A stretch of DNA of 64,000 bases from Tubiluchus corallicola (GCA_030141605.1 JAQGDQ010002374.1:434001-498000); one strand, 5' to 3'; shown: positions 370 to 64,000, numbered from the stretch's first letter. Notes: generated by a model not told the origin, from the letters alone. Translations and numbers: made by a program.

Positions 370-3300
370 TTGATACATGTCAAGAAACTGGACAAATTCC
401 TCCAATGACCAGTTCAAAAGAAACCTTAGTTGGATTGACATGAGAGAATCTGCACATCTGAAGAACTCCTCAACTAGCTCTCTGCATCCACCTCTGCGAC
501 GCGGAATCAAATCACTCCACCGATCAGCAAGTTTGCGAAACATTTCTGCACAGTCAGGAATCCACCTGAAATGATGTATAAGAAAGGTTTAGTCACGAAT
601 CGCTTACGACGCTCAGTTATGCTTTGTTTAAATACTTCGGCACAGTGCAAGTTGGGATTCGGCATTCAAAGGCATGGCTTACTCAACGAGATGTTTATAG
701 CATGACTATCACTGAGTTCACTTGCAAGCATATCCTCTCTAAGACGAACTACTCTAAGACTGTACATACAGTAAAACCTCCTTATAACACCCCCTTTATA
801 ATGCCAACCTTGCTTAATGTCCAAATTATTAGCAAAACAAAACATCTGCATTTGCATAGACATGTAGGTATTAATGCACCTTGTTATAATGCTAAACAAC
901 TTATAATGCCAATTTTTTCAGTTCCAAAGTAGAGAGTATAAAGAGATTTAGCTACACCTCCTTCTAAGAGGTATGCAGCTAAGGTAAACCTAACACTGCC
1001 ACATACCACCCAGATGTGCTGCGTATGGTAGAGATGAGCATTGAATTTGAATTAGTTCGAATTCAATTTGAACCTAAAATTATGGATTTGAATAGCACTT
1101 CAACTACATATGTTGTTTACATTTAAAACATTTGAAACAGCACACATTCAGTATAATTTAGCTGTGATTTCTGTGCATGGAAGGAGTTTAAAATTCCCCA
1201 CACAATTTAAATACCCTAACACTGTCCCTAATGCTAAGCCAACCCTAACCCTAACCCTAGCTCTAACCCTGATCCACTTCATGAACTAATTTTTTTTGTG
1301 TGGGGAATTGTAAACCCCTGTGTCCAATTTTTAAACAGATTATTAGTGTTTTTACCGTAGAGTAAAAAACAACTAACATGCATGTTCTTTCTGAGACCAC
1401 TTTTTATTAATGATTTGAAAATTTATTTTAAAATCTTTATTGCTGAATTTGAATTCGGTGCAGACTGGAAATCTCGAAATACTGTTTGATTCGAATTCAA
1501 AAGTCATAAATTTGATTTGATTGAAGTTCGCTTTCTGGTAGAGAATGCTCACCTCCTACTATCTACGACTACGATTACTACGACAAGAATGTACGACTAC
1601 TATCCACTGAGCCATTGAACCCATCACATAAATATCATAGGCTGACAGCTAATGCTTCATAAAACATTTTCTTAAAAAGACAACGGACAATATTTGTTCT
1701 TGGGTGAGACTTTGATTTATCAGTATTCTAACTTTTTCTCATATGTCATCCCAATGTTAATGTAAAAGTAAAAATAAGTGTTTATTGAGATGAAAAAACA
1801 TGTGGATGGACTACACCTGATGACTGCACACAAAACTAACTCACAGAAAAGAATAAGAGATGTTCAACGGATAAATTACATTATGTTTGTAATTGTCAGC
1901 ATGTTTATAAACAACTGCAGTTTACTTTACCAATTATTACTGATAGTGAGTAATGAGTTGCAGAAAGGAGATGAAAAATTGTGGACCAGTCGGGATTTGA
2001 ACCAGAGACCTGGGATTAGTACTCGCGTGGTCTGCCAGGTGCGCTAAGGATGTCATCCATGTGACGCACCTGGCGCAATTGAGCAGCTGTTGACTTTTTT
2101 TTGAATGCTGTACCAGAACAATACGAATTTTCTTAACAAGACATTTTTACGAAAAGCTACAACAACACACAGCAGACAACATGGACTAGTAAAAAAGTAA
2201 CAAAAAATATATATAAAAATATAAGAATACAATGATAGTTCACAAATTACAAAAAGTTGAACTCAAATCAAAATGTATTTAACTCTTGTTGTTGATTAAT
2301 TGCATTATTAACCCAAAGTGTTTTTATCATTACATAACAATTTTGACTTGTTTTTCACATAAAATCAAAGTGCTATTTATAGTTTATACAAGATTGACTC
2401 TATTTGTTGCCCACTGATTTATAGTACATGTATATTCTTTATTTTGGACAACAATACTAAATTAAATTAGTAATTAGTAATGTTGCTTGTAGGAGTTATG
2501 CTCCCAAATTAGACTTGAAAGTCATCAGAAAATTGCATTAACCAGCAAAATGTCTAAGTCTGATAAAATAAACCAGTGAATCTCACACAGTTATTTGTAA
2601 ATTTATTCAAGGAAAATACGGTTAAAGTATACATGTCAATCTAAGAACATAACTAATTGACAAATATAATTTTTCAATGAGTTTACAAAAAGTATTCCCT
2701 AGTGTTCCGAGTCGAACACGGTAATCAGGCTGTCGATGTTAGTCTTGATGATTCTGGAGATCTAGTTTGCCTTCTACAATGGTGTTGTAACCCACTAGGT
2801 GTGATTTTATGGAAAATATCTTCATCTGACAGCTCAAAAACTTTTTCAGCCCTCAATTCTGAATGCTTAGCCTCTCTCAAGTTGTTAACATCCTCCTTAT
2901 CCCATTCAAATATACAAGTTGCAAACTTGCTCATAGACAGCTTGTATAAAAGGTGGCTTTCTGTACTACATGCCAAAGCAATGCGACACATTAAGTGGCA
3001 AATGTGGAGTCTAATTTCAAGATCTTTCCATTCAGCAAAATGTTTCTTGAATGACGAAGGCCTGCTACAAGCCAAAAGCAGTCCCGATTAACGTATAGCA
3101 AGCATGGTGGCAATGCTTGCGCAACTTCACAACGCTTGACCAAGCCACAACGCTTGACACACTGTTTCTAGTATGAGCCTTTTTCCACCTGTCAGGACTG
3201 ACATCAAGATCTCACCATGCTCATTGCCAACATTAGTCGACCTCACTGACGTACCTGCAGCCGCACCAGCTAGCTTGTGAGTAACCTGCAAAGAATCACA

Positions 3301-6300
3301 GTCATGAAGTCTATAATCAATAGCAAGGTATACATAAATTGTACACCATTTAAAGCAGCAATGTGCATTTGGCAGCAGTAGTTAAGCAATACTCAGGTTT
3401 GACAGTATATGGATGGGCGACTATTGAGTTAAATACTAGCTCTGAGCAGCTTTATTCACTTTACTCATTCTGGTTGTTAGCCTTATTCAGAGATGCTGTC
3501 TCTGTAGCTAAACATAGTCAATACACCTCATTTTAGGGCATTAACCTTAATAAGTTCCACCATAAGCCTCCAAGTCCCACCAGAACAATTCACAGTAAGT
3601 TGTCACTTGAAACTGTGAGTAGCAAATGTCACTTAAAAATGTTCGCAGGCTAAAGAATTTGTTGTGAGATCAATTTTGTCATCTCCAAAAAAATTCGAAT
3701 GCCCCATTTTCTTTATGTTGTTGACAAAATTTTAACCTAGTCAGTGCTTGCTATGATGAATGGTAGATTTAAATGATTTCACATCAGTGCTACCGTAAAG
3801 CTGCAAAATTAATTGTGGCCATCGTTCCTACAAATGGATTATAAAACAACTTAGTTTACCTGGCAGCAAAGACACTCTGTGCCAATGTCCAATAGACGTG
3901 GATGTCCAACACTTGCCAACTTAGTTTGGATGAGGTAGGTAGAACCAAAGGCTATTCTGCTGCTTCTTTAAAACAGCTTCACAAGTCTTTCAAAGGTTAC
4001 CTTCAAACAGAGCCTTGGGCAGCCACTAGTGGTTATATTCTGGTAAATAATTGGCCCAAGCTTCTGGCAATATCAGCTCTGTTGCCTTTGCATCACTGGA
4101 TCATGAAAATAACCGATTTTAATGGATGGAAATTAAAGCACCTAATAAAACTTATTTCATTTGCTACCTTGCAAAAAGCAAAAGTCTATAGAGAGCAGGG
4201 ATAAAAAAGCCAAAGTTTATACATGCAGTAACATGTTCCACCTATTATTAATTTACATAATTTGATGAGTTTGGCAGTATGCTACTAGTTAATCATGTAA
4301 TTTGCTTATAATGCTGGTGTTATTACTAATACACAACAAAAGTTTATTACATCAGTTATGCTACAAAAAGCAAATTTTGGAGGATGTAGTGTTGTGATTT
4401 TTTGCTAACTAGCTGTGTTTCTGAATAACCTTGGAAATTTAACTCAAACGACAGAAATCAGATTCTTAGAATTCATACTCTCAGAAACATAAAATTTAAC
4501 AGTTAACACACTTGACTGAAGAAACAGCGGTTTCCGGAATAGGTAAACTCCTTGTTGCTGGTATCTTAGCAATTTAGATAACATAGCAACTTACCAATTA
4601 GAAGTTGGGTTACTCTATTTTTGGTTACGTTATTTGCTAGTTGAGTTAGCAACATAGCAATTAGCTGCCAAAATTTATGCAGGTCTTTAAACTAAACAGA
4701 CAATAGTAATAATAATAAATTTTATATTTACCAATTTGAGCTTCTACTTCTTCTAAGGTCAAGAAAAAGTTTCATTTGCAGGCTGCAGTGAAGCACCAAT
4801 AGCAGAAAACGGCCTGCATACCACAGGCTCAAATGCAACACCCTTGGTTATTGTAGCCTCATGATGTGTGACTGCCTATATAAAGATGTATTTTTCAGTG
4901 CTAAGTTACAAGAAGCTGAGGAAAAATTCCAGCACTTATAAAAACAGCACTAGCTAAGGATGAGGTCAATACTAGTCACTCACTTCTTTCTTCTTCTCCC
5001 CATCTACCTATACTTTTTGCTACTTCATCCATCACAAGTGGAAAGTGTCTGAGGAATTCCTCCAAGCAATTTTTGTTTGCTGTAAGTTCATCAGGTTCCT
5101 TGGGCCTACGTGATTTCATTTCGACCTAAGAGAAATAGACTGGTCATTCCTGATATTCCAAAAAATCTCTCTATTAACAACTAAAATAAATAAAAAGCCA
5201 TCTCACTTTGAAAAAGTTAAGAAACACACCAGTTTAATGAAATAGTAGTAATGAAAACAAAAAATACTAAATCCCAAATTTTATTAATTTTTGAACTGCA
5301 AAACTTACCTGCACACAATCAATCATTCTGCATTGACATAATTGCAATTACAAAATCAATACAGTGTAGAATAGCTAATTTAAAATAAAAACCTATATTC
5401 ACATTACCTAGTATACCTATCAATTGTGAGCTAGCTCACCACGTACACAGCATAAAGTGCATCATTCTGCAGAAGCCATAAGAATGTGTGGCCTTCATAT
5501 TTGCCAAAATGAATTCTCATGCAGCTCAACACCCACTCTCTGTTGGCAGGATCACCACCTTCCTTTAGAATTTGCTTTTTAGCAAGAACTTCTGCCACAT
5601 GTCAGAGTCTGGTGTTGATGTTGTGAGTGGCTGTTGCCTGCACTTCTTTTCATGGGATCGTGCAACACTAGTAGCATGGAAGTTTAGTCAAGGTTGTAGA
5701 GGTAGTTTGCGACTCTAAAAACACCACAAAGTACTACCTTTTTAAAAGCAGGTCGCATGTTTTAGATATAACAGTTTGCAATTGTTTACACATTTTTTTA
5801 AATCAACGATTTTTAATTCTGATGTTGCATATGGATTCGATTAAATAAATCACTACGAAAGCGCTTAAATAAATTTTTAAGGCGGCGGGAAACTACAAAA
5901 ATCCACTGAAGATTAGTGAGGATGCATAAGACACACGGAAAATCAATTCTAAAGGAGTTGTCCATGTTTTGACAGCTCCTAAGCATATTGATACTGATAC
6001 AAATGGTGACATTAATGTTGGTGTTAGAAAAAATAGTATTAGTGGTTTTTGGGCGATGGACATTTTGTCAGATTCCTTCATTCACAAATATATAGCATAG
6101 AATCATGCTGGGAACCAGTTAAGAATGCCTAGTACTAACAGAAATGTAGGACAAAATGATAACAACAGTAATAGTGGGTTAACCGTTCTTGCAATAATTA
6201 ACAAATTATTGCATGAGCTCTTTTGAAGGTTAGTTATGTTAATTGTATTTGATGCCGATAGGTGTCAGCACTTGGTTGGGGCTGATTTTGGTCTTAATAA

Positions 6301-9300
6301 AGTGTCTTTTTATGTTGTCATTTTTAACTTTTTGTATGCTGTGTTATCAGTTTTCATGGCAGCAGAGAGTAGTTCAGCTGACAACATAAGTGCTGCCAAA
6401 AATAACTGATAAATTTTTAAGAAGGCAGGAAACTACAAAAATCTGACGAAGTTTAGTAAGGACGCATATGACACACACAAAAAAATAAATTGGAAATATG
6501 GCGGTTAGTAACTGAACTTGAGGCGAAGAAACAAGCATTAAGTGGTGACATTAACCTTAACTGGCAAGGCCAGAGAAGCGGCTTTAAGCATCAGAGTTGA
6601 AAATTTAAATAAGGTGGATGGTATGACGACACTTCTTAGTACATTGGATGGAGTGTTTTTAAAAGAGAGCAAGGATAGTACTTATGACGCATATAAAAAC
6701 TTTGATGGTATGATGCACTCATACAAAACAGTGAACTTATCGGCAAAAATTGGAAATACGAGCTGTAGGATTGCAGCCGAAGTAGTAAAAGCTGACATTC
6801 CTCTGTTACTTAGCAAATCTTCTTTAAAGAAAGCTGGAACTGTACTAGATTTAGCAGTGATGTTTCAAGAACCAATACATATGTGGTGACATATGATATA
6901 AGTAAACAAGAAAAAACTAAAGTTAAAGCAACTGAAGATCCACGTTAATGCACGTTAAAATCCACACCTGATGGAATAGTGCCAAAAGCTAGAATAGTAG
7001 TGAGAGGATTTAAAGAGTTTAATGTAGACATACAAAGAGACTCTTCTACTTGTGCTTATGAATCACTGAGAGTAATAATTGCAATTTTTGCACTCTGTAG
7101 ATGGAAGATGAACTCAATGGATATCAAAACTGCTTTTCAGTGGATATCAAAACTGCTTTCTACAATGAGAAATGATTGATAGGGATGTCTACATAAAACC
7201 TCCAAAAGAAGCTAGCCGTGAATGAACTTTACGACAACTCAATAAATGTGTTTATGGTATCACAAATTCATCATTACAATGGTATCGCAGAGTCCAAGCT
7301 GTTATGAACAAGTATAATGGAGTTATGTCAAAGATGAATCCTACAGTATTTAATTGGACTAATAATGCTGAAACGGTGACTGGCATAGTAGCTTGTGCTT
7401 TATTTGCGGTGGAACCACAAATTTTGAATCCATGATCATTAGTAAGATCCATGCAGCATTCAAAGTAGGCAAAGAGGATAGTGATGCCTTTAAGTACTGT
7501 GGCATTAGTCTTTCATCTGATGGCAGTAGTAACATATACCTTAATCAAGACAGTTAAACTGACAGCTTACAGAAAAGGATTACTAGCTGATTGCTTAACT
7601 AAGCATGGTGCCTCCACAGAAAAGGATTACTAGCTGATTGCTTAACTAAGCATGGTGCCTCCACTGTTGCATTACGCAAAGCACTTCAGGATGGAACTGT
7701 ACCTTTAAGTGTTATAACTTGAAGTATTGTACCTTAAAGCCAATTGTATTAAGTACAAAATGTTTTTTAAAGAAACCAAAGCAACAATTTTTTGTGAAGT
7801 CGTAACATTAACATTTATTTATTATTTTCACTAAACATTCGTGTTATTATTTACTTGAAATTTTAACTAACTTTCATTGTGCTGTTATTATGATTACACT
7901 TTTCATTACATGATACATACCAGACTTTTGTAGTCATTAACATTTTAAATAATATGAACACCCTTAAAAAATGCTTGGGAATTTGTTAACTGTATTTGAT
8001 GCTGATAGGTGTCAGGGTTGGGGGTGTAATTTGCCATGATTTTGGTCTTAATATAGTGTCTTTTTATGTTGTCATTTTTAACTTCTTGTATGCTGTGTTA
8101 TCAGTTTTCAGTTAGACTAGTTAAATGGAATGTCAGTTAGTTGAAATGCTTAAATTAAGACTTGAATTTTAAATAGAGTAGTAATCTTACTCTGTATAGT
8201 AGTATAACTACTAGCGTCTTCTTCTGGTCACATGTTCACTGGCTTACCGTAATGCTAAGCAGAAACCCGAGTGCATACTGTACAAAACTCTGATATACTT
8301 TTTGACACAAAAAAATTCAAAGTAATTTCGAAGTTTGTCAAAATTACGACTGTTTTCACACACTATAAAAATGCTCCTATTATGTCAGAAAGACACGAGG
8401 AAGGAAAGAGGTACCTATAGCAACAGCGTAAATAAAGTGCAGTTTGTGTCGCCACACTTCACTGGCTAGCGGAGTGCTCAATTTCAGATAATACTACTTA
8501 GTGATTGGTAAACTAGCGCTCAATTTCAGGTGCTTAAATTCATAAGCTGTTTAGTGATCGGTCAATGAGTGCTCAATTGCTCAAATGTTGACAGTCTTAC
8601 AGCTTGGCACCAATGCTACCAGTCAATATGACTGATTCAGCCTGAGATTTCCCCCTTGTAGCTCACAATCCAACAGCACCAGCTGTACTCATGACAGTAG
8701 GGGGATATTTATGGCATCAACAGTATTCTCAAATTAAGCTAAACTTTGAGATAGAAAGCTCATATTCTGCATTATTCCACACACAAAAAACTTTTGTACA
8801 TATCCTAAATAATATTTGTTATTTAAATATCTGTGATTATCGTAAATAACAGCTCATACTCCGTTAGAAGCCTTGTTCGAGTTTCATTGCAATAGGATTC
8901 GATTAGCTTCTGAAAATTGCTTGGTTGGAGTGGTAATTCTGACTCCTCTAGTTGTTTGCAACTAACGAACCTCAATTTTATATACCTACAATTGCAAAAC
9001 CTATTGTTTACTTTATTTTAAATGCAAATGCATTTAAATCACAATAACTTGTATTGTAATCATTATGCAAAATCAGTTTATGGCATTTTTCTGGTAAGAT
9101 GACACTATCACACTTTCTCTATGAAATAGTAACATTATTAAACATCCGTCATTTGCAGTCTTTAAGTTTAGAAGAAATAAGATTGCCATATGGACAAACA
9201 GTACATCATGGTTATTTTATTGACAGCTTGCAAAAAACTTGATTGACAATAAACCAATATAAAACAACATTGCTGGCATCAGCAAAAACTTGTAAAGCCT

Positions 9301-12300
9301 AAATAAAAATAATGCAGATAATAAATCATTTGTTTATTAATATGGTTGTTAATCGTCTTTTGTATATTTTTATCAGCTGTATTAATCAAGCCTCACAGTT
9401 TAGTGCTGAGGAGTGAGGATGGCACCAGCAATAGCAAGAAGTACAGTTTATTAATTACTATTCAATCACACAAAAGTATGAAAGCATTAAATTAAGTTCA
9501 CCGGGACTTGTATGCAAAATCTTCTACTTTCTTTTCTAGTTTGCAAGTAATAATAAAATAACTATGCTGTTATCAATACTAGTTATGGCAAACTGATAAT
9601 TTTCCCAACCTGCTAAGAAGATTGAAATGCTCTATGGTCAAATTTAGTGAAATCTGACTGTGAAATTGCATAAAAACCAAGAGATATGTCAGATAGCTTA
9701 TTTCAATGATACTAGACTGTAATTATAAGCAACTGCGTTAAAGAATGAAACAGTAAATAAGAAGGTACCTATTTCGTCACCATGTTTCCAATATTTGGTT
9801 AAAATTACAACAGTTTAGGCTGCAGGCAACAATATTTAAAGCTGTTATATAATAAAGAAAAATCAATACTTAAAACTATTTTACTTACTTTTCATTAAAT
9901 AAACGCTGTAACTCTTGCATAACTACATTAGAAGCAAATAAATGTATCTCCATTAAGAGCTTTGACTCGTGATATGATTCATGCCATGGCACAGGTGCAC
10001 GAATCACCCTGAAATGGTATAACTACTAGTGTAACAAATGAAGTATGTGGTCGCAACCAATGAGCATTCCCTGTCCAGCCATAATGCTAGAATAATTACC
10101 ACTTTCTCATACAGTCACTGAATAATAAAAAACACATTCAATTAAAACCCAGTTGGACTTTATGATTATTTGTTTAATTTGAATTTCGTCTTGTTAAGTT
10201 AGCATTTTGCATTCCACGAGGATAAACAACAGCTACTAACACACTATTTTAAATCTAATATAAATTCCAGCAGAGGCAAATTGATAATATTGAAAAAAGT
10301 TTATTTAGGAGTAAGCTAGTTCCACATCATCAAATGCATATAATTGAATATGATAGGATTTCCTGTCATCATCCAAGTTATATTCTGAGTTGGCGATAAG
10401 AGGCATTAATTATGTTGCTATAATTTTTACAATTAAAATTCACAATAGTTTTTTTCAAATTGCACTGTGAATTACTTATTGTATGGTTCACAATGCCTCA
10501 AGGTAACTAGCACTATATATTAATTGTCAGTAGCGGCCTAGCGTCAGGAAAACTATTATAAATGTTGTACATACTCTATTGTAATGTAAGAAGAACCCAC
10601 ATTCACAAAATGTAGATGCTGCCAAAGTGAGAGCAATGACAGCAACCAAAGTAATACCAACCAAAATTTCAACATTTGCTTCTTCAGCAGTTTATAAATA
10701 TGTTTTTCGAGAAGAAAATGCAAATTTTTTGTACTTTTTTTATACAATTTCATGCACTGCAAGCTGGAACCCAGTGTTTAACAGCAGGATCTACTCAACG
10801 AGATATTTGTAGTGAGATTGGAGCCTGCCTCATTATCAAGGAAGTCCTTCTATGTTGTTTTGAGCCATTTAACTGGCAGATGTGTCACAGCTACGTTCGC
10901 AATATATCCTCCTTCTATGAGGTAAACAGCCAGTAGTTTATGAATGGTACTGCCCAAAGTGAGCTAGTTTTCAACACACGCCATTTGCATGAAAGCACCC
11001 ATCCAGTCAGTCACAAACAATGTCACTCAACAAAACTAATGAAGAATGAAGGTGAGGAAGTAATACCTGTCTGGGAACGGAATTGGCAGTTCGTATATCT
11101 GCAGTCTAATTCGTTCTATCTCATCCATCAAAATATAATCCACTAATTCAAATAAAAAGAACTAAAATAAAATATTCGGCACATCTGCTGTAAAAACAAT
11201 AGGCATATCAGTGAACATATTTGCTTTCCACTGCAATTTCAAGCCAAGATGAAAAAGTAAAAAAGTTCAAATTAACAACTATTCAATTAAAAATGTGTTT
11301 AACTGATTATAAAATAACAACCACTTTTCCATTTAAAAAGTTAACGTTTTTCATTTGTACAAAACAGTTATATTTTGCGAGTAAAAAAGCATTTTGCCAG
11401 GAAGCTGCCTTTGCTGATCTTCGTAAATGAATTAATTGACAAATATGTGAATATTCTGGTATCAGTTAACTAATGTGTATATACACCAATTGGTAAGCTT
11501 CTTTTCTCATAAAAGAATAACGCACAAAATCAACATTGTTACCCAATGCAATGTGGAGATTACCTATGGCTTTTTTCACACTAAATTTGTATCGATCGTT
11601 CAGTTCAGCAGCAAGTTTTGCATGAAGCTTCTTCTGTTTGCCCACAGGAGGCACACTGTTTCCTAAGCGCAACAATGCATTCTGCATCAGTTCCAGTGGC
11701 TGAACTGCTAGATCACTGTCACGCACACCTTCATTAATATAGTAACAATACCGCTAAAAACACAAAAAGTCATGATAAGCGAAAACCCTACATTTCACAA
11801 ATGTGGTTTACCAAATGACCTTGAAAAGTTTTATACATATTGATATTAAAGGCTTATATATATATATATATATATATACGCTGCATGTTATGGGAAAGTG
11901 TATGTTGTAACAATGAAAACATGCTAACTAAGCACACCTGCCTTTCGTCTACATATGCAGTTTTCATCTCTTTCTTCACTAATATCATTCCACATAATGA
12001 CAATAGAATTTTATCAAGCAGTGCTCTAGAGGCAAAAGTAAAAATGAAAGATACAAACCTCAAAGTCTGTCAAAGTTTGATCGACAATTGCATCCTGACA
12101 CTTCGTAAGAATAATATCCCGCTGCAACACAGGTGACATTGGACGACTAACTGCTTCAATAGCCTGCTTCTTAGCAGCCCTGCAAAGATAGGAACACCAC
12201 CACTTTTCATTCGTTAATAAAACATACTCAGGCTTTCAATAAGACATTTGGTGACATTTGATTGACCATTTGGTGAGGTGACAAACAAGATATTGTAAAT

Positions 12301-15066
12301 TCTGTAAACAACTATCTGAAACAATAATGTATGCAAATCACCATTTATTTGGTGCACAATGCATATAGCCAATTTTTTTATATAAGTTGAATGTGACTTT
12401 CAAATGATTTTTTACTGAAAGAGTGCAATAGAAACCACAGTCCTAGCAAAGAATAAGCTGCTTAGTAAATTCAAACATAAACATTCTATGAAATTGAGCG
12501 CCTCTGATAACATGTAAATTGCCATTGTTCATTGGTATCTGAAACGGTTTTTACCTTTTGTTATTATAAGAATTATTTAGATTTGACAAATTCCACATAA
12601 AATAAATGATAATATTAATTTCCACAAATTAAGAACCACAAATAGGCTATATATTTATGAGTTAAAAGGAAGGAGTTTACAATTCCCCAAACAATTTAAA
12701 TACCCCAACCCTAACCCTAATCCAACTTAACCATAGCCTTAATCTTTACACTCACCTAACCATAACCGCTAACCTAATCCTAACCCCAACCCTAACGCTC
12801 ACCCTTGTCCTAATAATCTTCACGAATTAATTTCGTGTGTGTGAGGAATTGTAAAATTTAGCGAATTATAAGGTCTCATGGCACTGTATAGAGAATAACT
12901 GAACATAATAAATACAACTCATACTCAAAATTTTGAGGCCAATGAATAAACCTCTAACTTATTTTGCATATAATTCATGCCAAACTAAGAAACAACAAAT
13001 TTACTACATGCCTTTCTGCAGCCATTTTCTTCTTTTTTCGCTTTGCAGCTTGAAGAGACGGTATTTTTACACTTCTGACCAAACTCGTCCGTTTTCGCAA
13101 CTCTGCCCCCTTTCTTCGCTGACCCGCTAGTGACTTTAGCTGATATTTTGCAGCTGCGGGGGTAAAATTGTTTCCTATAGACTCACTAGGAGTCCGGCAG
13201 TACCTCTGCTCTTTCCATGGAGCTGCCAGTGTGTATGGAGCTCTAGCTAAAATAGGTGGATGTGTCATCTTCGCCTCAATTGTCTGTAAAATGTCATCAA
13301 AGATTGATTATTATAATATCTTATAGTATAGCATTATAGTATATTATAGTGTAGATAATTATTATTGATTAAGTAATGCTAATAAGTATGGGAATAAGTA
13401 ATGCTACCCCGGTGATTATGACATTTCAAAGTCAACGCTAGCCAAACATTTCAGGATTTCTGATTTATATTACTCATGCCAGGTAATTCTAGCTATTTAG
13501 ATTCTAAAATTTTGTTTTTATTAGTTCTGATAGCTGAACCTGAAATTCTAAAGAGCAATTACTTAATTATTTACAATGCTTTTGGACAATGGGTTTGTAC
13601 CATCATTAGCAATAACATTGATGCAGAGCTGCCAAGAGTAGAGAACCAACTGAGTGAGACGTTACAATTCAGTTACAGGGTGTAGGGGTAAATGACCTCA
13701 CGATAGGAGTACGGGCAGAGCCAGTGTATTTTATAATACTCTTTTGAGTGCATGTTGGAAGGTTTAAATGCAAGCTAAATTTAAGTGTTCCCGAATACAC
13801 TATATTAAGCCTACTTAAATACTGATGAGCTTCTTCAAGTTTAGGTTTCAGATGTAACATAATCTAATTAAATATTGTGATTACAATTTGCAGTATCTCA
13901 TTTTCTCAACTTACTTTTGTCTCAATCCAAGAGCTGCAGCCTAAAAACAGATTAAGCCTAATAACTTACCACAAGTTATTACATGTATGAGGCAAATAAT
14001 AAAAGGAACATAAATTTCTGACTAGAACGTATTAGAATAAAATAAATAACAATGCATAATTACCTACTGGTACTTAATTTCTTTCAACTGTTGCTAACTG
14101 ATCGAGGAAAATATGAAACATTTGCACTAACTTGCTCAACAAAAGAAAATGGAGATGAATGAAAAGTGGAAGCTTTAGTAACTAAATTTAGTAAACAAAT
14201 AATTTACATTCTAAGATGAGTTTCAGAAGAAGACGGAGGCAACAAGGATAAGATCTGTGCTTGATCTAAAATATGCGAGTGTCGCGATTTATTGGTTTTC
14301 GGGCTCGAGAAAACAACAAAGCCTAAAATGCGTGACTCTTACACCCAATGCATATTAACTATTAAGATTATAAATAATTAATTAGTTGCCCATGGGAATT
14401 TCAGGCTCAAAATCAAAATCAAAATTAATCTAATTAGCCAGAATCACTCTAGTTGGAGTGATCTGACATTGGAAATGCTGAACCGGTCAGCAAGTTACAA
14501 GGGATGTACTTTGGACTGTCACAATTGCTGGGGAATAAGACAGTTTAGTGGTTTATGGCACTTGCCTTGTTAGCAAAGAGTTCATAGTTCAAAACTAGAC
14601 GGTGTTCCAGATTTTGAAACCACATTTCCGGCTTTACAAATTTCAAACTTCAATCAATTGTGTGTTTATGCCGTCATTTACAATAGTCTTGAACTATTGA
14701 TATTATGATCACAAATAAGTAAAATGTCAAGCATTGATTATTCCTTAGATATTTATAATGTTAATTGAGATTATTAACAATGATTACATCCAAAATTAGT
14801 AAATTTTTGAAATGAAACTTTGTGAATAAGTATAATCAAAGAGACATTGAATTTAAAAAGTTTCAACAAAAGTACATACAGCTCACTCAAAAGTCAAAAC
14901 AAGTTTAAACCACATAGTAAATATTAATTTTCTAGTCTAAGTCTACCTTGTATAATGGTGAAGCTTCGTAAACACAAATACTTGGTTTGGGGATAGGTGG
15001 AAGATTTGGAATGCCTGTCAACTGCGTGTTAGGCCTTGGCATACGTGCTTTTCCGACTGGTGGCAT
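370..15066 (-). CDS. DNAH3: Axonemal dynein heavy chain, DNAH3-like; first 8 coding exons (gene continues off the left edge)
   Basis: Phase-consistent exons 15066-14947, 13283-13012, 12179-12059, 11753-11564, 11142-11067, 10008-9889, 8985-8860 and 565-370. Translation includes TLAAPWKEQRYCRTPSESIGNN, RYCYYINEG, VDYILMDEIERIRL, VIRAPVPWHESY, LRFV...LPLQP and WIPDCAEMF...LMSIQLR, recognised as the DNAH3 N-terminal region. Confidence 0.85.
1029..1558. mobile_element. MITE with imperfect TIRs (TAGAGATGAGCATT ... AATGCTCACCTCCTA), hAT-like
   Basis: Inverted termini and recurring TTCGAA/TTTGAA subterminal motifs; interrupted by the element at 1179-1319. Confidence 0.5.
1179..1319. mobile_element. 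Short non-autonomous element with an internal telomere-like (CCCTAA)n tract, copy 1
   Basis: GTTTAAAATTCCCCA ... TGGGGAATTGTAAAC inverted ends flank degenerate AACCCT repeats; a homologous copy lies at 12668-12856. Confidence 0.6.
1880..2046 (-). repeat. Left part of an interrupted palindromic repeat; contains the 3' portion of a tRNA-like core (B-box GGTTCAAATCC)
   Basis: Colinear with 54795-54957. The minus strand reads TAGCGCACCTGGCAGACCACGCGAGTACTAATCCCAGGTCTCTGGTTCAAATCCCGACTGGTCCA. Confidence 0.75.
2700..5680 (-). pseudogene. Spliced DUF6729-type / Dada-like transposase pseudogene, truncated at the 3' end
   Basis: Fragments: GGDPANREWVLSCMRIHFGKYEGHTFLWLLQND (~5460-5560), QVLDI..GTECLCC (~3860-3915), KLAGAAAGTS..TNVGNEHGEILMSVLT (~3190-3285), LLYVNRDC (~3078-3102) and RLHICHLMCRIALACSTESHLLY..CIFEWD..HCRRQTR (2760-3015). 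Stops and frameshifts are present, and the catalytic-type Asp residues are altered (VNRDC, RLHICH). Confidence 0.75.
5868..6230 (+). mobile_element. Older degraded Copia fragment
   Basis: 5868-5945 resembles the gag start at 6409-6485 (AAATTTTTAAG..GGAAACTACAAAAATC..); no intact ORF. Confidence 0.45.
6237..8110 (+). mobile_element. Internally deleted Ty1/Copia LTR retrotransposon (GalEa-like)
   Basis: TG...CA LTRs at 6237-6356 and 7984-8110; PBS TGGCAGCAGAG at 6357 (tRNA-iMet-like); GTTA on both flanks. Coding remnants: gag LTGKAREAAL..STYDAYKNFD, protease DIPLLLSKSSLKKAG, RT PKARIVVRGF..MDIKTAF and RNase H LADCLTKHGAS. Confidence 0.85.
7569..7662. repeat. Exact 47-bp tandem duplication in the Copia RNase H remnant
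   Basis: ACAGAAAAGGATTACTAGCTGATTGCTTAACTAAGCATGGTGCCTCC occurs twice in tandem. Confidence 0.9.
8613..8740 (-). repeat. Right part of the interrupted palindromic repeat (5' end of the tRNA-like core and upstream sequence)
   Basis: CCAGTCAATATGA..CTGAGATTTCCCCCTTGTAGCTCACAATCCAACAGCACCAGCTGTACTCATGACAGTA matches 54958-55075. Confidence 0.75.
12668..12856. mobile_element. Short element with a telomere-like (CCCTAA)n tract, copy 2
   Basis: Same start as copy 1 (GGAAGGAGTTTACAATTCCCCA) and the same GGAATTGTAAA end; the degenerate AACCCT array is longer. Confidence 0.6.
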
Positions 15067-16143
15067 ATTGACAAACTGCAACTATAAATTTCAGATTTTC
15101 AAATGCACAGTACATATACGCTTCATATATATATATATTCATTTTGCTATTTCTCTACCAGTCCTCTACCCACCCCTCTCTCTCTCTCTCTCTCTATCTC
15201 TCTCCCTGTTCCACTTTTGTTCTCTCCCTCTGATCTTTGACATGTGAAGATTATTAAAGCATGTTTCCATTAATAATTCCAGAATCTAAAATTAGTTTTG
15301 AAAATTTTGAGCTAATATTATGAGCACTCTGCACAGCAGTGGCGTGCAGTCCATACATGCCATGCAAGCACTGCATGCCTTCTAATTTCCAAAAATTATT
15401 ACGATGTAAAAAGCACTTGTAAATATTTATAATAATTAACTATTATTGCTAATATTTATCATAATAATATTTTGCACCCATATTGTATTATAACGTCGGT
15501 AGGCTATAGGTTTTGCGAAACCATTACATTACGCAGCAAAGCAGCTGTAAGCATTCACGGCATTTTCCAACTCAACGTCTGAAATCAGACTCAATACAAT
15601 TTCGGACGGGGCGCATGAAGACGTGGCTTAATCGGAAATTGTCCAATCACAATTAGCGACAGCATTGTTTTTTCCTAGACCTAGGCCTATCCGCGAGAGA
15701 AATGCTGCCGTGTATTCAACTTGGGTTAATGCTGGCCCAGCTATACATGAATGTCTATGTGCATCATGTGGTTTGTCTAAGCCATTATTTAACATGTACT
15801 GTAGTCGATTTCTATAGATGTTCCAGAGTGCTAAATCATGATTTATAGTTTAAGTGTTTTACTAATTACTGTACTGTTTAAATGTTTCATTGTGTTAATT
15901 TTAGTTTTCAACATGCCAGTATTTTTATTGTTTTAGTATAGCTATCCCATCATAGGACTTTAGCGTAGAGTTAATGGAATAGTTGGACTTCAGTATGCAA
16001 GATGCGCATGTGTGGTAAGCATTTCCTTTACATCGTTCCTAAATTAATTTATTTTTAATTAGCTAGGACGTAAGGGTTGGCTTTACAACAATGTACAGAT
16101 TTGGTTCAAGCGGCAGACTGCATCATTAAAATTGACTTACACT

Positions 16144-16358
16144 TGTGACGTGTTCTTATCTATGGTTTATATTTTAATGTTTGTGCTCACTAAGGTTTCC
16201 CCTCACTGTTTTCAGCGGGCAAGCCACTAGGCGTTACATTCTCTAGACTTATCATGGCAGCAGTCTTTGTGAATAAACAGATTAATAAGCAAGAAACATT
16301 TATGTTAAATGTTCTATAAAGTTTCTAACAAAGTTACAAATGTTGCCAAGACGTTACA
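16144..16358 (+). repeat. 5' LTR of the Gypsy element
   Basis: Direct repeat of 20641-20851 with a few substitutions and a small indel. Confidence 0.95.
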
Positions 16359-16468
16359 TGGTAGTACGGATGGAAGTTATCAGCGAGTGCTTAACTACGG
16401 ATACGCTGATAACATCACTTCTTTGAGTAACGCCAAAATTTCTCTCGGGAAGACTGTGGTAGGATAAA

Positions 16469-17539
16469 ATGGCTGATGGCGAAGGTCATATTCAAGTTAC
16501 TTCCCCGTATAGTGTTCTACCTGCACCACCTAGACTAGACCTGCATGGAAATTTAGCTGTGAAATGGCGAAAATTTCGTCGCATGTGGGACAATTATGAG
16601 GTGGCTTTGAAGCTCAATGAAGCAAATTATGCTGTTAGAACAGCCACATTATTGACCGTTTTGGGTCCTGAGTGTGTGGAAATTTTTGATGGACTAGAAT
16701 TTGAAAATGAGGCAGATAAAACAAATGTTGCAATGGTTCTACAAAAATTTGAAGCATTTTGTGTTGGAGAAACTAATGAAACTTACAAAAGATATTGTTT
16801 TAATAAACGCGATCAAAATCCTCGTGAAACAATCGACGCCTATGTCTCATCTTTGCGCACACTAGCCAAAAGGTGTAATTACGGCAATCTAACTGATAGT
16901 CTGATACGGGATCGGATAGTTCTAGGCATAACTGACAATATTACTCGTAAGCGACTACTGCAAGAGTCAAAACTAACATTGAGTAGCTGCATAACTATTT
17001 GTCGCTCGTTTGCTGAGTCTGCAAGTCAACTTAAAAATATAAAGGCTGAACAAGCTTCCTACTCTGAACAAGTGCAAGCTGTCAAACCCAAAACTAATAA
17101 AGGTAGTGCTAGTAAAGCCACGGGTACTAAGAAAAAGGTGATTGACTGTCACTTCTGTGGGCGTAAGCATGAATGGGACAAAAATAAATGTCCTGCTTAT
17201 GGCAAAACATGTAACATTTGCCATGGAAAAAATCATTTTCAGTCTATGTGCAAATCTAGAGGTAGAACTGACACTCGTGCAAAATCATTTCCGTCGAGAA
17301 GAAGCCAAATTGTCTTTGACATGGCAAACTGTGAGGAACAGTCGAATGAGCATGCGATTGGAACTGTAACTCATACTGTTCATGATGCTGAACAGTGTAC
17401 CACGCAACAGCCTCAGATTTACAGTGAATGGCTTATGGCGGGTACACCTACGATTTTTCAGATCGATTGTGGGGCCAGTATAAACATTATACCTGAAAGA
17501 CTTGTGCCGCATCACTTGTGTGATAAACTTCTACTGTAA
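16469..17539 (+). CDS. Gag with two CCHC knuckles, plus the N-terminal half of the aspartic protease
   Basis: LIRDRIVLGI, CHFCGRKHEWDKNKC, CNICHGKNHFQSMC and FQIDCGASINII. Confidence 0.92.
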   Translation: MADGEGHIQVTSPYSVLPAPPRLDLHGNLAVKWRKFRRMWDNYEVALKLNEANYAVRTATLLTVLGPECVEIFDGLEFENEADKTNVAMVLQKFEAFCVGETNETYKRYCFNKRDQNPRETIDAYVSSLRTLAKRCNYGNLTDSLIRDRIVLGITDNITRKRLLQESKLTLSSCITICRSFAESASQLKNIKAEQASYSEQVQAVKPKTNKGSASKATGTKKKVIDCHFCGRKHEWDKNKCPAYGKTCNICHGKNHFQSMCKSRGRTDTRAKSFPSRRSQIVFDMANCEEQSNEHAIGTVTHTVHDAEQCTTQQPQIYSEWLMAGTPTIFQIDCGASINIIPERLVPHHLCDKLLL

Positions 17540-17544
17540 AGACT

Positions 17545-20526
17545 GTGTTAGAAATGTGGAACATAACTAAAATAAGTCCCATTGGGCAAGTCAGATTGCC
17601 AATTGTAAATCCAGTGAATAAGAAAAGTTACTCTGTGAACTTTTTGGTCGTAAACGAAAATTATGTACCATTGTTAGGTTCTCGTGCTTCACAACAAATG
17701 AAGCTTATTACTGTAAATGAAAATAACTTCAAAAGGGTTGAATCAGCCAATGTTGCTAATATGTTGTGTAGTGATAGCAGTACTAGGCCTACAGCACATG
17801 TTTCAGATGTTTGTAGTGTTGCTGATTGTAATGCTTTACTAACTGAATTTTCTGATATTTTCAGTGAGGTACCAGGAGAATTCCCTGGATGTGTAAGTTT
17901 GAAAATTGATCCTACTGTACCGCCAGTTGTACAACCATGTAGGCGATTTCCTTATAACATGCGAGATAAATTTAAAGCTGAACTTGACAGACTCGAACAA
18001 AACAACATCACTGAACGTGCAGACCACCCTACTGACTGGGTTAACGCTTACACAACTGCTACTAAACGTTCGGGGAGTATCAGAATCTGCTTGGATCCTA
18101 AACCACTGAATAATGCTATCAGACGAGAAATCTACCATATTCCTACAATGGAGGAGCTTACTCCTAGACTGTGCAATGCGAAGCTCTTTTCTACTTTCAA
18201 AGTGACAAGTGGGTTTCATCACATGAAGCTAGAAGAAAAGACCAAAGATCTAACAACATTTGATACTCCGTTCGGTAGATATCGTTATACTAGAGCTCCG
18301 TTTGGGATTTCAGCTTGGCCTGAGATTTTTCAGAAGAAAATGGATGAGCAAATACAAGGCTTAAAAGGAAAAGAAGACTTCCATGATGACGTACTAATTT
18401 ATGGTTGTGGTGCTACCATTACAGAAGCCGGTGTTGACCATAACAACAAACTGAGAGCATTCTTTGAACGATGTCGTGAAAGAAATATAAAACTGAATCC
18501 AGATAAAAGTCAGATTCAACGTAGTGAAGTGCGATACCACGGGCATATTCTGAGTGCTAATGGTATTAAAGCTGACCCCGACAAGGTCGCAGCGGTGCAA
18601 AATATGCCGGCTCCAATCGATAAGACGGGAGTAAGAAGACTGTGTGGTTTTGTCAATTACTTGGCAAAGTTTTTGCCTATGCTTTCTGAAGTCTTTAAAC
18701 CTATTAGTAACGTAATGTCTGACAAAACAGAATTCAGATGGAACTTTGAACAACAAGAGGTATTTGCACAGGTTAAAAAGCTCATAACTACGTCTCCCGT
18801 GCTCAGATATTACAACCCAGATGAAAAACTTACTCTGCAATGTGACAGCAGTCAGTCAGGCTTAGGTGCATGTCTAATGCAGAATGGTCAACCAATTGCA
18901 TTCGCCTCTCGAACTTTGACTGCAACCGAACAGAACTATGCGCAACTTGAAAAGGAAATGCTGAGTCTAATTTTTGGTATTCAAAAGTTTGACCACTGCT
19001 GCTACGCTCGTAAAGTAAAACTGGAAACTGATCACAAGCCTCTAGAATCCATACTCAAGAAGAGCATACTTAGTGCTCCTAAGAGAATACAGTGCATGAT
19101 GTTGGTGCTGCAAAACTATGATGTTGAAGTAGTATATAGGAAAGGAGCAACCATGCTGATGGCTGACACCTTGTCTCGTGCTTCTCTCCCCGAGACTGAT
19201 GACATTGCTTTAGAATTTGAAACTGTACGTGCTTTGGAATACGTACCTGCTACTTTTAAAGATGAGAAACTTGAATTGCTCAAAGTGGCTACAGTGAAAG
19301 CTTTGCAATCTATGATTAGGTCTGGCTGGCCTTGCAAAGTGTCTGAGGTGCAACCGGATCTACGGCAATACTTTAATAATAGAGACGAACTGGCAATAAA
19401 CGAAGGTTTGATATTTAAAGGTGAGAGAATTGTATACCCATCGAGCGAAAGGCTGTCTTTCATTAGACTGGTTCATGCTTGCCACATGGGAATACAAGGC
19501 TGCTTGCGAAGAGCAGGTGAAGTTGTATTCTGGCCCCGGATGAACGCTGATTTTGAATCTTACATTCAAAAGTGTGAAATCTGTAATGCATATCCACGGT
19601 CACAGCAAAAGGAGGAATTGATTCCACAAATTGCAACTCGACCATGGCAGATTGTAGGAAGTGATCTGTGTGAGGTAAATAATACTGATTATCTCATAAC
19701 TGCTGACTATTATTCCAACTTCTTTGAAATAGACAAGCTTGAATCAAAAGAACCTAGAACAGTCATAACAAAGTTGAAAGCACATTTTTCTCGGCATGGA
19801 ATACCAGAAATGCTCCGTTCTGATAATGTGCCATTTGATTCTCAAGAGTTTAAAACTTTTGCTAAAATTTATGGCTTCCAGCATGAAAGTTCTTCACCGA
19901 GGTATCCAAAATCGAATGGCAAAGTTGAGAATGCTGTCAACACTGCTAAGCGTTTGATGAAGAAAGCGCTAGTTGCAAAAGAAGACCCATACTTGTCTCT
20001 ATTGGCTTATAGAAATACACCAGCGGAAGTTCTTAATGCATCACCAGCTCAACGATTGTTTGGAAGACGGACACGGACTACACTACCAATGCCATCTTCC
20101 TTGCTAGAGCCGAAATTTGTGCCAAATACTAGAGAGAAAATCATTGCTCAGAAGGATCGCCAAGCTACATATTACAACCAATAGGCGAAACCTTTGATTC
20201 AATTAATGGTTGGGGATGTTGTACGTATGGACCCTCTACAAAAAGGGAAGATGTGGGAGAAAGCTATAGTGATACGGAAGATTGGTGAAAGGTCTTACCT
20301 TGTAACCTTAATGTTGGTGTACAGAAGAAACAGAGTTCATCTGTGCAAGACGTCTGAGACTTATATAAATGAATCTGTATACTGCCCATACGACAACATG
20401 AGACAGAAACAAGACGTGATACCAGACACACTTAATGATAACAGACAGAGGAATGATAACGAGATTAGAACACGTTCTGGTAGGCGCATTCAGAGACCTA
20501 AGTTTCTTAATGATTATGTTACCTAG
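17545..20526 (+). pseudogene. Pol (protease C-half, RT, RNase H, integrase) with disabling lesions
   Basis: RT IRICLDPKPLN..APFGIS..FHDD; RNase H CDSSQSGLGA..YAQLEKE..TDHKPL; integrase HHCC and DDE (SDL, SDN, NGKVENA). Frameshift relative to gag at ~17524-17537; in-frame TAG at 20182-20184; first RT catalytic Asp replaced (STFKVTSGF). Confidence 0.9.
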
Positions 20527-20640
20527 TTTGAGTATTGATAACCTTGATGTTGACCTTTAATTTTGTGACCTTGATATCTGCTTAGATTGATGTTTTTCAG
20601 TTTAGTTGGTCTATGTTACTTACTTTTAAAAGGAAGAGGA

Positions 20641-20851
20641 TGTGACATGTTCTTATCTATGGTTTTTTTATGTTTGTGCTCACTAAGGTTTCCCCTCACT
20701 GTTTTCAGCGGGCAAGCCACGAACCGTTACATTCTCTAGACTTATCATGGCAGCAGTCTTTGTGAATAAACAGATTAATAAGCAAGAAACACTTATGTTA
20801 AATGTTCTATAAAGTTTCTAACAAAGTTACAAATGTTGCCAAGACGTTACA
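20641..20851 (+). repeat. 3' LTR of the Gypsy element
   Basis: Follows the PPT; ends in CA immediately before the TSD. Confidence 0.95.
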
Positions 20852-25506: not shown

Positions 25507-55884
<30,378 letters not shown>

Positions 55885-56189
55885 CTAAAATGTACATCAA
55901 AATGTGTGATTAGTATTATCTAGTCCGTTCACGCTGTCTGCTATTGGAGCTAATGAGCTACAGTCTGTGTTTGACTGTTTATTGGATGCTAAGGCTAAGG
56001 TCTCCAACAAGAATGTATAAGTTACTATACAGGAGTTAAGTGAACTAGTAAGATCAGCTACTAAGAGTTCATTTGTAGGCAAGTAAGGACCTAAAAGGCT
56101 GCGTCTCTACACGCAATATTTTTTACAAGTTATGGTACTTCGGAATCCAGCACAAAATGACAGGACCTGCTATGTAGGACGGGTTGTGG

Positions 56190-57171
56190 CAGGAACAGAG
56201 CCTAAATATGATGAAACATTGGACCAGCAGAGGTACAGGAACAAAGAGTAGCTACAATGAAACAACAAACCAGCAGAGCTACAGGAACAAAGCCTAGCTA
56301 TGATGAATCACTTAACCAGCAAAGTGCAGGAACAAAGCCTAGTTATGATGAAACAATGAAGCAGCAGAGGTGCAAGAACAGTGCCTTGCTATGTCAAAAC
56401 ATTGAATCAGCAGAGGTTTTGAAGTTTTGAAGCTTTTATTATTATCACATTCAGTACAATATAATGACGTTAAATACATAGTGACATCAAAATTGTTACT
56501 TCATACTGTATTAAATTATTATGTTTCATACACTATAGTTATAATAAAAGAATTATTGTATTACAGTGGGCTAGAGAAGCAAAAGCTTGTATAAGCCCAC
56601 TGTCATGTGAACCAGATAAAAAAAAGAATGGATGAGTGAACAAAAAAAAAGAACTGGGAGAAAGGTTAGATCACACAGAAAGGGTAGAAGGATGTGTTAG
56701 TGGAAACAGTAGGAAGAAAGATTACATCAGCTCAAAAGATTTATCAATGTCTTGATTTGGATAATCTGTACCAGGATTGTGGTATGACTGCTGCAGCAAC
56801 AGGTACAGGAACAAAGCCTAGTTATGACGAAACAATGAACCAGCAGAGGTGCAGAAACAAAACCTAGCCATGATGAAACACTGAACCAACAGAGGTGTAG
56901 GAAGAGAGCCTAACTATGATGAAATACTGAAACAGCAGAGGTGCAGGAAGAGAGTCTAACTATGATGAAATACTAAACTAGCAGAGGTGCAGAGACAACA
57001 CCTAGCCATGATGAAACACTGAACCAAAAGAGGTGCAGGAAGAGAGCCTAACTATGATGAAATACTAAACCAGCAGAGGTGCAGGAACAACGCCTAGCTA
57101 TGATGAAACAATGAACCAGCAAAGGTGCAGGAACAGAGCTTAGCTATTATGAAACATTGAACCAGCAGAGC
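56190..57171. repeat. 46-bp minisatellite in two blocks (56190-56417 and 56795-57171)
   Basis: Unit CAGCAGAGGTGCAGGAACAAAGCCTAGCTATGATGAAACAATGAAC at period 46 (56841, 56887, 56933, ...). Confidence 0.9.
56530..56790 (-). mobile_element. Probable LINE 3'-end remnant splitting the 46-bp array
   Basis: Minus-strand stem-loop CAGTGGGCTTATACAAGCTTTTGCTTCTCTAGCCCACTG, typical of L2/CR1 3' UTRs, downstream of a decayed ORF2-like end. Confidence 0.4.
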
Positions 57172-57969
57172 TGTCTTTGTCAAGTTCAATTCCTCAACAC
57201 ATAAATAGGCAGACACACGAGTGGTTTTCCAGCAGCTAACCATCAGCTAACCTGGCTAGGCATTGCTTACAACTTTGGTCACTAAGCTATTCCCCTCATT
57301 TAATGCACATTTGCTATTTTGTGCATAAACAAAATTACAGTTTATGTGTTTGCATTTACAGGGTAAATTATTATGGAGCTAAAGCACATATAAAAAGCAG
57401 AAAACAAATGCCTGAACAAATTTCAGTTTGTACATGCAGGAGTTATTTACAACAGCATTTCTCTGTCTGATTTCCAATTCTAAAATTTGGTAACAATGTT
57501 TGGTAACAAAGTTTTTTACAATGTTATAATTGGGAAGTGGTCACAGCATGTCGGTTCCACGGATTGCAAAGTTTGGCTATGTACATATTCCTAATTATGG
57601 CGGAATCAGCTAGAAAAGCTACTGTTTTGAGCTAATCAGTAGTTTCTCATCATTCGGCAGTATTAAAACTATTAAATCGGGTTATGATTAATCTGGATAC
57701 TTTTTCTCTTTTTAATTTATTGAAGGTTCTTTTACATACCTAAACTCAAAAACCATGTCATCAGACAGTGAATGACCAACGTTAGTGATATCAGCTTTCT
57801 ATAAACAAATGAAAACATTCACTATAGAAACTATAATTACCACTTCTAAATCTAGTATCAAATTCTACAAAATTTTGTCTGACTTAATAAACAATTATAG
57901 TTATATCTTTCACGATCTCAGAAAGTTTCAGCTTTTCCTAAAGAAATTAACAGAACAAAGAAAAATGAT

Positions 57970-58122: not shown

Positions 58123-58228
58123 AACCCTGAGAGATTTACTTTGTTGGACAATAAATAAAAACCAAAAATCCTAACGTAAGACCAACCCAATCATTCCACA
58201 TGTGAAATGTACCATTGTAAATGCTTAC

Positions 58229-63051: not shown

Positions 63052-64000
63052 TATAAGCGGTTACCTTTTACCTATAAGCGGTTACCTTTTACCTGTAAGT
63101 GTCACCTTCTACTTGTAAGCAGTCACCTTCTACCTGTAAGAGGCCATCTTCTAACTATAACAGGTCACTTTTTACCTGCAAGTGATCACTTTCTACCTAT
63201 AAGCAGTAACTTATCTATAATAGGTTACCTTCTACCTATAAGTGGCCACCATATACCTATAAGTGGCTATCTTCTATCTATAAGAGGTCACCTTCTACCT
63301 GTACTTAAGTGGTCACCTACCTGTAAGCGGTTACCTTTTACCTGAAAATGGTCATCTTCTACCTGTAAGCAGTCACCTACCAGTCAGAGGTCACCTTCTA
63401 CTTATGAGTAGTCACATTTTACCTATAAGAGGTCACCTTCTACTTATAAGCAGTCACCTTTTACCTATAAGAGGTCAACCTTTACCTATAAGAGATCACC
63501 TTCTACCTAAAAGAAGTCACCTTCTATCTATAAGTGATCACCTTCTACCTATAAGAGGTTACCTTCTACCTATAAGAGGTTACCTTCTACCTATAACTGG
63601 TCACCTTCTACCTATAAGAGGTCACCTTCTACTTGTAAGTGGTCACCTTCTAGCTTATAAGAGGTCATGTTCTACTTATAAGCGGTCACCTTCTAGGTTA
63701 TAAGAGGTCACGTTCTACTGATAAGATGTCACCTTCTACCTATAAGTGATCACCTTTTACCTATAACAGGTCACCTTCTACCTATAAGTGGTTGCCTACC
63801 TATAAGGGGTTACCTCTACCTATAAGAGGTCACCTTCTGTCTGTAAGTAGTCACCTTCTAGCCTATAAGAGGTCACCATCTACCTATAAGTGGTCACCAT
63901 CTACCTATAAGAGGTCACCTTCTATCTGTAAGTAGTCACCTTCTACCTATAAGAGGTCAACTTCTAGCCTATAAGAGGTCACCATCTACCTATAAGTTGT
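63052..64000. repeat. 21-bp minisatellite (CTTCTACCTATAAGAGGTCAC)n, running off the right edge
   Basis: More than 40 degenerate units, within a GH31 intron. Confidence 0.95.

What the first reader, a model, noticed from the sequence alone, without database searches (positions are those of the whole stretch)
2041..8618. Dada-like transposon inserted exactly in the A-box of a tRNA-derived core, with an empty site in the same window
Seen: the repeat intact at 54783-55202 is split here, with its left part ending at 2046 and resuming at 8613. The single hexamer GAGTTA (54952-54957) corresponds to TAGCTC of a tRNA A-box on the minus strand. Here it appears twice in altered form, as TAGCAT and TAGCGC, around 6.6 kb that lacks TIRs and encodes a DxxH-type DDE transposase pseudogene. 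Known: Dada transposons lack TIRs, make 6-7 bp TSDs and target tRNA and snRNA genes. Inference: this family recognises the Pol III A-box, and its target here is a tRNA-derived segment of another mobile repeat rather than a tRNA gene. It may be an undescribed site-specific family using a high-copy repeat as a safe harbour.
Basis: partly seen in the sequence, partly recalled or inferred. Interest (0 to 1): 0.85.

Follow-up and report, generated by a model that had tools for sequence, protein, structure and literature searches.

The report
Dada transposon targeting tRNA-like repeat
A dead copy of a known kind of tRNA-seeking jumping gene (Dada) splits a tRNA-like stretch inside a common repeat, and most other readable copies of its family sit at the same base of that repeat, likely because its enzyme read the repeat's tRNA-like promoter box as its usual target.

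Summary
Observation largely confirmed. A 6,566-bp insert (2047-8612) splits a high-copy repeat at the position equal to tRNA nucleotides 8-13 (A box), with a decayed 6-bp duplication. Contigs of public runs show about six related 5' ends. Of five distinct junctions that could be read, four (three besides this one) lie in copies of the same repeat at the same register, the fifth in other DNA at an A-box-like hexamer; none is visibly a tRNA gene. A-box targeting, absent TIRs and altered duplications are all published (Kojima & Jurka 2013; Kojima 2022), and this scan noted an invertebrate A-box Dada before (e1-8148192). What I did not find in print is a Dada family found mainly in a tRNA-derived, inverted-repeat-bearing repeat. 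Whether that is preference, target abundance or survival bias is open. New variant of a known kind; interest 0.4.

The parts
1871..2046 (-). Downstream part of the host repeat: A box onward, anticodon-like arm, B box (1993-2003), CCA and T run, then the arm that forms the inverted repeat in the complete copy
   Evidence: empty-copy letters table 7
2041..2046 (-). Downstream copy of the 6-bp target duplication (TAGCGC)
2034..2074 (.). Perfect 10-bp inverted repeat across the junction (2034-2043 in the target, 2065-2074 in the element)
2047..8612 (-). Dada element relic, 6,566 bp with nested insertions (4,692 bp without the copia-like element); same orientation as the tRNA-like core
2254..2405 (.). 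Nested short high-copy repeat (limits approximate)
   Evidence: tables 2, 3, 7
2746..3288 (-). Transposase core remnant: from just after the first D to about 85 residues past the DxxH site; stops and a frame break; second D reads N, DxxH reads HICH
3912..4097 (-). Start of the DUF6729 domain
   Evidence: E 8e-7, own profile; Pfam E 0.013, below cut-off
5437..5592 (-). N-terminal transposase piece
   Evidence: tblastn E 8e-8 with P0105
6237..8110 (+). Nested copia-like LTR retrotransposon remnant; LTRs 6237-6356 and 7984-8110 (85% identical, TG...CA), broken RVT_2 pieces
   Evidence: absent from a second Dada copy (table 5c, joint 6205 to 8109)
8473..8612 (-). 5' terminus shared by about six copies; four 15-nt subterminal repeats and two CCAATCA-like units
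8613..8618 (-). Upstream copy of the 6-bp target duplication (TAGCAT)
8619..8715 (-). Upstream part of the host repeat (about 100 bp conserved ahead of the tRNA-like core); no right-hand inverted arm follows
54783..55202 (.). Unsplit paralog of the host repeat, 420 bp, ~119-bp inverted arms (87%), degenerate tRNA-like core on the minus strand without B box

Best explanation
This is a decayed, internally deleted Dada DNA transposon of a small family (about six copies) that sits at the A-box position of a tRNA-like core inside a high-copy repeat, likely because its transposase recognised the A-box sequence itself and the repeat offered many such sites. Shown: Dada-type protein remnant, exact split at the nt 8-13 equivalent, decayed 6-bp duplication, same orientation as the tRNA-like core, shared 5' terminus, and 4 of 5 readable junctions in this repeat. 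Inferred: cut-and-paste insertion by direct sequence read-out, as proposed for fish Dada; separate insertion events into already diverged repeat copies; later deletion of most of the transposase gene and arrival of a copia-like element and a short repeat. Also inferred: the repeat is a non-coding, inverted-repeat-bearing (MITE-like) element whose core derives from a tRNA gene.
For: Protein: 486 relatives at E<=0.001; 23 of 25 scanned carry DUF6729; D1-D2 spacing of 68-69 in 16 of the 17 hits with all four motif patterns (the other is an early false pattern match), equal to D567-D635 of Dada-U6_DR; top hit P0001 matches by eye the translation of a published Dada record, and the intron before the V-T-x-K-L-A-G exon lies at the same place. 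A second natural copy has letters that read Asp-Val-Trp-His at the motif (table 3, read by hand). Target: exact B-box pattern at 1993-2003, the only exact match among 5 hits with up to 1 mismatch; empty copies read like the tRNA-Tyr/Phe/Ala D-arm printed. Junctions: 10 records laid, 6 cross the end with a readable flank, 5 distinct loci; window, record 3/9, record 5 and record 10 continue into the repeat (hexamers TAGCAT, not shown, AAGCTC, TAGTTC), record 7 into other DNA at TGGTCT. Record 10 differs from the window at 1 of 38 terminal letters but 12 of 31 flank columns (by eye); record 5 at 9 of 75 plus a gap versus 10 of 30.
Against: Only five loci, one of them the ascertainment locus; four records (2, 4, 6, 8) were dropped as unreadable and about two copies stay unresolved, which could be real tRNA genes since contigs break at identical genes. 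Record 10 has depth 3.7. For record 3/9 flank and element divergence are similar (about 19% versus 13-16%), so co-duplication is not excluded there. Only the 5' end was surveyed. Rfam and ARAGORN do not call the core a tRNA in either window copy. No intact copy was seen, and the first D and the E could not be checked in this family. The repeat's mobility and class rest on copy number and one copy with both arms.
Confidence: 0.7

Rival explanations
1. An ordinary tRNA-gene-targeting Dada (tK/tY-like). Insertions in real tRNA genes were purged or are hidden by contig breaks, and only spill-over insertions in the dead repeat survive or are readable.
For: Same site and hexamer as published families; published families are loose among tRNA types and one Dada-tV_OL copy of five sits in a non-autonomous hAT. 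About two copies are unresolved. The family looks old (84-90% identity between copies).
Against: 0 of 5 readable junctions has a recognisable tRNA gene upstream; 4 of 5 have the repeat.
Confidence: 0.35
2. One old insertion into one repeat copy was multiplied passively, by movement of the host repeat or segmental duplication, so the recurrence is not targeting.
For: The host has inverted arms and could carry cargo; record 3/9 shows similar divergence in flank and element; a ~67-bp derivative would be light cargo.
Against: Records 5 and 10 have flanks much more diverged than their termini and differ from each other at 7 of 29 flank letters; record 7 has an unrelated flank yet an A-box-like hexamer at the same register (by eye).
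Confidence: 0.15
3. The 'repeat' is an amplified family of tRNA genes or pseudogenes with conserved flanks, so this is plain tRNA-gene targeting.
For: Acceptor-like stem, 5-bp anticodon-like stem with a 7-nt loop, B box, then a T run.
Against: No tRNA call in either copy; 119-bp inverted arms; copies about 80% identical; the loop starts with G and would read ACT with a short variable region, which is atypical (own knowledge).
Confidence: 0.15

Closest known systems
A-box Dada families of fish: Dada-tY, Dada-tK (TAGCTC), Dada-tN, -tR, -tS (Kojima 2022, PMC8869645)
   Same: Insertion at tRNA nt 8-13, 6-bp duplication, often altered; same orientation as the tRNA; CCAAT-type repeats near the 5' end; same transposase family and intron position.
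   Different: Termini differ (here TGGTG...CATCCT; fish records begin TACC/TCC and mostly end CCCCAGCTT); protein only about 40% identical to its nearest hits; invertebrate host (inferred); targets seen are a tRNA-derived repeat, not tRNA genes.
Dada-tIA, -tIB, -tY, -tG of Perkinsus marinus (Kojima & Jurka 2013, PMC3706591)
   Same: TAGCTC or TAGTCT duplication in the A box; element end resembles the target's continuation, which blurs the duplication length.
   Different: Intronless, in real tRNA genes; sequences not compared here.
Dada-tV_OL copy in hAT-N16_OL and one-ended Dada-tL_DR in HATN3_DR
   Same: Dada inside another, non-autonomous DNA transposon.
   Different: Single off-target cases (1 of 5 copies; one end), not at a tRNA-like A box; here 4 of 5 junctions.
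Transposon-targeting Tx1-clade LINEs
   Same: Sequence-specific landing in another repeat.
   Different: Retrotransposons with an endonuclease; unrelated chemistry.

Membership tests
Dada superfamily | Transposase homologous to Dada transposases | tested here: met
   link to published Dada records by eye and by D1-D2 spacing; the 2013 protein alignment file could not be read
Dada superfamily | D, D, E triad and DxxH | tested here: inconclusive
   This copy: first D and E deleted, second D reads N, motif reads HICH; a second copy reads D-V-W-H (table 3); relatives have all four
Dada superfamily | 6-7 bp target duplication, sometimes altered | tested here: met
   TAGCGC / TAGCAT, 4 of 6 identical, against a single hexamer in empty copies
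Dada superfamily | No TIRs; short subterminal inverted repeats | tested here: met
   No TIR; 11-bp match at 2075 and 8570, reached by 4 of 3000 random pairs, though the 8570 site varies among copies
Dada superfamily | Introns in the transposase gene (except Perkinsus) | tested here: met
   Splice acceptor at 3285-3290 at the position seen in published records; prediction only, no RNA
Dada superfamily | N-terminal CCCC and C-terminal CCHC zinc fingers | tested here: inconclusive
   Both regions are missing from this relic
Dada superfamily | Fixed site in a multicopy small-RNA gene | tested here: inconclusive
   Fixed site met (5 of 5 junctions at 8611-8613), but 4 of 5 targets are a tRNA-derived repeat and none a called tRNA gene
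A-box lineage Dada-tK/tN/tY/tR of fish | Shared termini and phylogenetic grouping | tested here: inconclusive
   Termini do not match by eye; labelled proteins were not available as sequences for a tree
Host repeat as tRNA-derived SINE | tRNA-like head at the 5' end of the element | tested here: not met
   About 100 bp of conserved sequence precedes the core
Host repeat as MITE | TIRs plus target duplication, many dispersed copies | tested here: inconclusive
   119-bp arms in one of two window copies; 57 or more contigs; duplication not established

The most novel reading that the evidence does not exclude
A Dada lineage has moved from tRNA genes onto a tRNA-derived DNA repeat, making it a cut-and-paste transposon that habitually parasitises another mobile element by reading its A box; and the perfect hairpin between the element's end and the altered flank records how Dada rewrites its target duplication, by copying from an inverted copy of the target inside its own end, a step that the literature calls unexplained.
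Probability: 0.25. Interest if true: 0.65.

Novelty: new variant of a known kind. Interest (0 to 1): 0.4.

Why it matters
Dada is one of very few sequence-specific eukaryotic DNA transposons and has been proposed as a site-specific delivery tool. A family landing at the same base of diverged, non-functional tRNA-like copies supports the view that the transposase reads primary sequence rather than an active gene, and the diverged targets map which letters matter. It also extends A-box targeting to another animal group. The junction hairpin gives a testable idea for the unexplained replacement of Dada target duplications. The copy itself is dead, so practical value depends on finding an intact relative.

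Tried and rejected
Word-based protein search found 0 of 264 candidates; the full HMMER scan succeeded. Exact-pattern scans for the Dada end and the host repeat found 0 loci in metagenome and viral collections. Direct Pfam scans of the core remnant gave no family, because DUF6729 ends before it. Rfam and ARAGORN gave no tRNA. A relaxed A-box pattern found 0 sites in the window, both copies being degenerate. Run X5 showed the host repeat but no cover of the Dada interior; that is no evidence of absence. The joint 2100 to 8575 could be a deleted derivative or an artefact of similar subterminal letters and was not counted. No right-hand arm of the split repeat was found in 8600-16300. Rejected: a non-Dada superfamily; that the host repeat is part of the Dada (published Dada ends carry an antisense B-box-like stretch, but here the B box is in sense with the A box and hundreds of empty copies exist). 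No tree, fold or complex job was run: labelled Dada proteins were not available and the fold question was not open.

Full report
Observation. A self-comparison of the window gives 54787-54935 against 1871-2024 and 54956-55043 against 8617-8699; local alignment extends the left part to 2046 = 54957; global identities are 133 of 168 and 73 of 87 paired letters. On the minus strand the junction hexamers are TAGCGC, TAGCAT and, in the unsplit copy, TAACTC. Contigs of four public runs laid on 1500-9300 show many empty copies: the commonest loose end after 2024 is a 22-letter stretch in exact register with 2025-2046, and one contig runs through 2046 directly into letters matching 8619-8648 at 24 of 30 (by eye). 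So the hexamer is single when empty and double here. X1 is near-identical and may be this DNA's source; X2 is the same sample; X4 (another study) holds pieces of the same copy with 0-1 differences.

The host repeat. The unsplit copy is 420 bp with ~119-bp inverted arms (87%). It is a paralog, not an empty allele, and lacks the B box. The split copy keeps an exact B-box pattern (recalled consensus) at 1993-2003, 43 bases from the A-box T, followed by CCA and a T run, but no right-hand arm was found up to 16300. Empty copies read like the D-arm of tRNA-Tyr, -Phe and -Ala printed in the 2022 supplement, and give a perfect 5-bp stem with a 7-nt loop. ARAGORN and Rfam call no tRNA. About 100 bp upstream of the core is conserved in at least 57 contigs (summed depth 44,000 against about 190 for single-copy contigs; a rough guide only), so it is not a simple SINE head. 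I treat it as a MITE-like, tRNA-derived repeat; its mobility is inferred. The genome is an animal's, probably an invertebrate (GPCR genes; inference).

The insert. The 119-residue minus-strand frame finds 486 relatives; 23 of 25 scanned carry DUF6729; names for 10 clusters are fish, scallop, acorn worm, feather star, sea urchin and amphioxus proteins. Remnants map to 5592-5437, 4097-3912 and 3288-2746; profile positions 97-304 (with the first D) and 483-1113 (with the E) have no significant match. Best identities are 36-42%. The family is Dada: D1-D2 spacing is 68-69 in 16 of 17 relatives with all motifs, as for D567 and D635 of Dada-U6_DR; P0001 matches by eye the translation of a record in the 2022 Dada dataset, and those records have an intron just before the same exon. 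No paper links the names Dada and DUF6729 in my search. In this copy the second D reads N and DxxH reads HICH; differences in a second copy read D-V-W-H (table 3). A copia-like remnant (6237-8110; LTRs 85% identical; RVT_2 E 2e-5, below Pfam's cut-off) is nested inside and absent from a second Dada copy (table 5c); a short high-copy repeat lies near 2254-2405. Interior depth of 218-444 suggests about two copies with coding remnants; no intact copy was seen. Transposase and tRNA-like core have the same orientation, as for Dada-tY (inferred from record orientation).

Other copies. Laying X1 and X4 on 8440-8640 gave 10 records. Four (2, 4, 6, 8) end inside or within two letters of the terminus and were dropped; record 8 stands for about two copies. 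Six cross the end at 8611-8613 and give five distinct loci (records 3 and 9 share a flank). Four continue into the host repeat at the same register, one (record 7) into other DNA with TGGTCT, close to the TAGTCT target of Dada-tG_PMar. Without the window's own locus the count is 3 of 4. Record 10 (depth 3.7) also carries letters like 2046-2063 only 30 bases upstream, suggesting a ~67-bp derivative with both ends and supporting 2047 as the 3' end. Flanks of records 5 and 10 are more diverged from the window (10 of 30, 12 of 31 columns) than their termini (9 of 75 plus a gap; 1 of 38), which favours separate insertions; record 3/9 does not discriminate.

Junction hairpin. 2034-2043 and 2065-2074 are a perfect 10-bp inverted repeat; 25 of 5000 random window positions and 2 of 5000 shuffles reach this (noticed after the fact; the right junction has only 5 bp). 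It covers three positions where this flank departs from the empty-copy A box, including one in the duplication. Fish A-box families end in CCCAGCTT, part of which is complementary to the AGCTGG after the duplication. Templated rewriting is a hypothesis only; record 10 has other letters at the matching place.

Literature. PMC3706591: parts 1-3 of 4 of the text (all of the main text) and supplement Figure S4 read; the protein alignment file and figures were not readable. PMC8869645: whole text, supplement parts 1 and 107 of 109, three supplement searches. They report TAGCTC in the A box as target, five fish lineages at nt 8-13, replaced duplications 'by an unknown mechanism', no TIRs, and single insertions in hAT elements; the 2022 text has no mention of SINEs. 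Eight searches (listings only for other papers) found no Dada family living mainly in a tRNA-derived repeat; Repbase Reports and subscription journals are not in the library. Earlier notes of this scan include an invertebrate Dada in tRNA-Lys genes and LINEs that target SINE heads (unchecked), and nothing similar by sequence.

Verdict. A real, dead Dada at the known A-box site; new family, with an unusual and only thinly sampled target. New variant of a known kind, interest 0.4.

Noticed in passing
window 16144-20851: Gypsy-type LTR retrotransposon: LTRs 95% identical, 5-bp duplication, long gag-like and pol frames with RT, RNase H and integrase zinc-binding hits.
   Followed up: partly
window 5869-5942 and 6409-6482: 82% direct repeat encoding the same gag-start-like peptide; may be an older retroelement fragment inside the Dada, upstream of the nested copia-like element.
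   Followed up: no
window 29432-30439 and 31542-32636: Two single-frame rhodopsin-family GPCR genes in tandem.
   Followed up: no
window 58136-58840 (minus): Glycosyl hydrolase family 31 C-terminal exon.
   Followed up: no
window 33774-34860, 56189-57174, 63052-64000: Three minisatellite-like tandem arrays.
   Followed up: no
window 48676-51543; 35830-36190 with 58865-59203; 1179-1314 with 12668-12855: Further diverged repeat pairs, two of them inverted.
   Followed up: no
window 55034-55085: The right arm of the host repeat seems to extend into a degenerate second copy of the tRNA-like 3' half, so the core may be part of a long palindrome.
   Followed up: partly
PMC8869645 Dataset S1, record ends shown: Several published fish Dada records carry an antisense B-box-like stretch about 50-150 bases from their 3' end; not discussed in the paper's text.
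   Followed up: no
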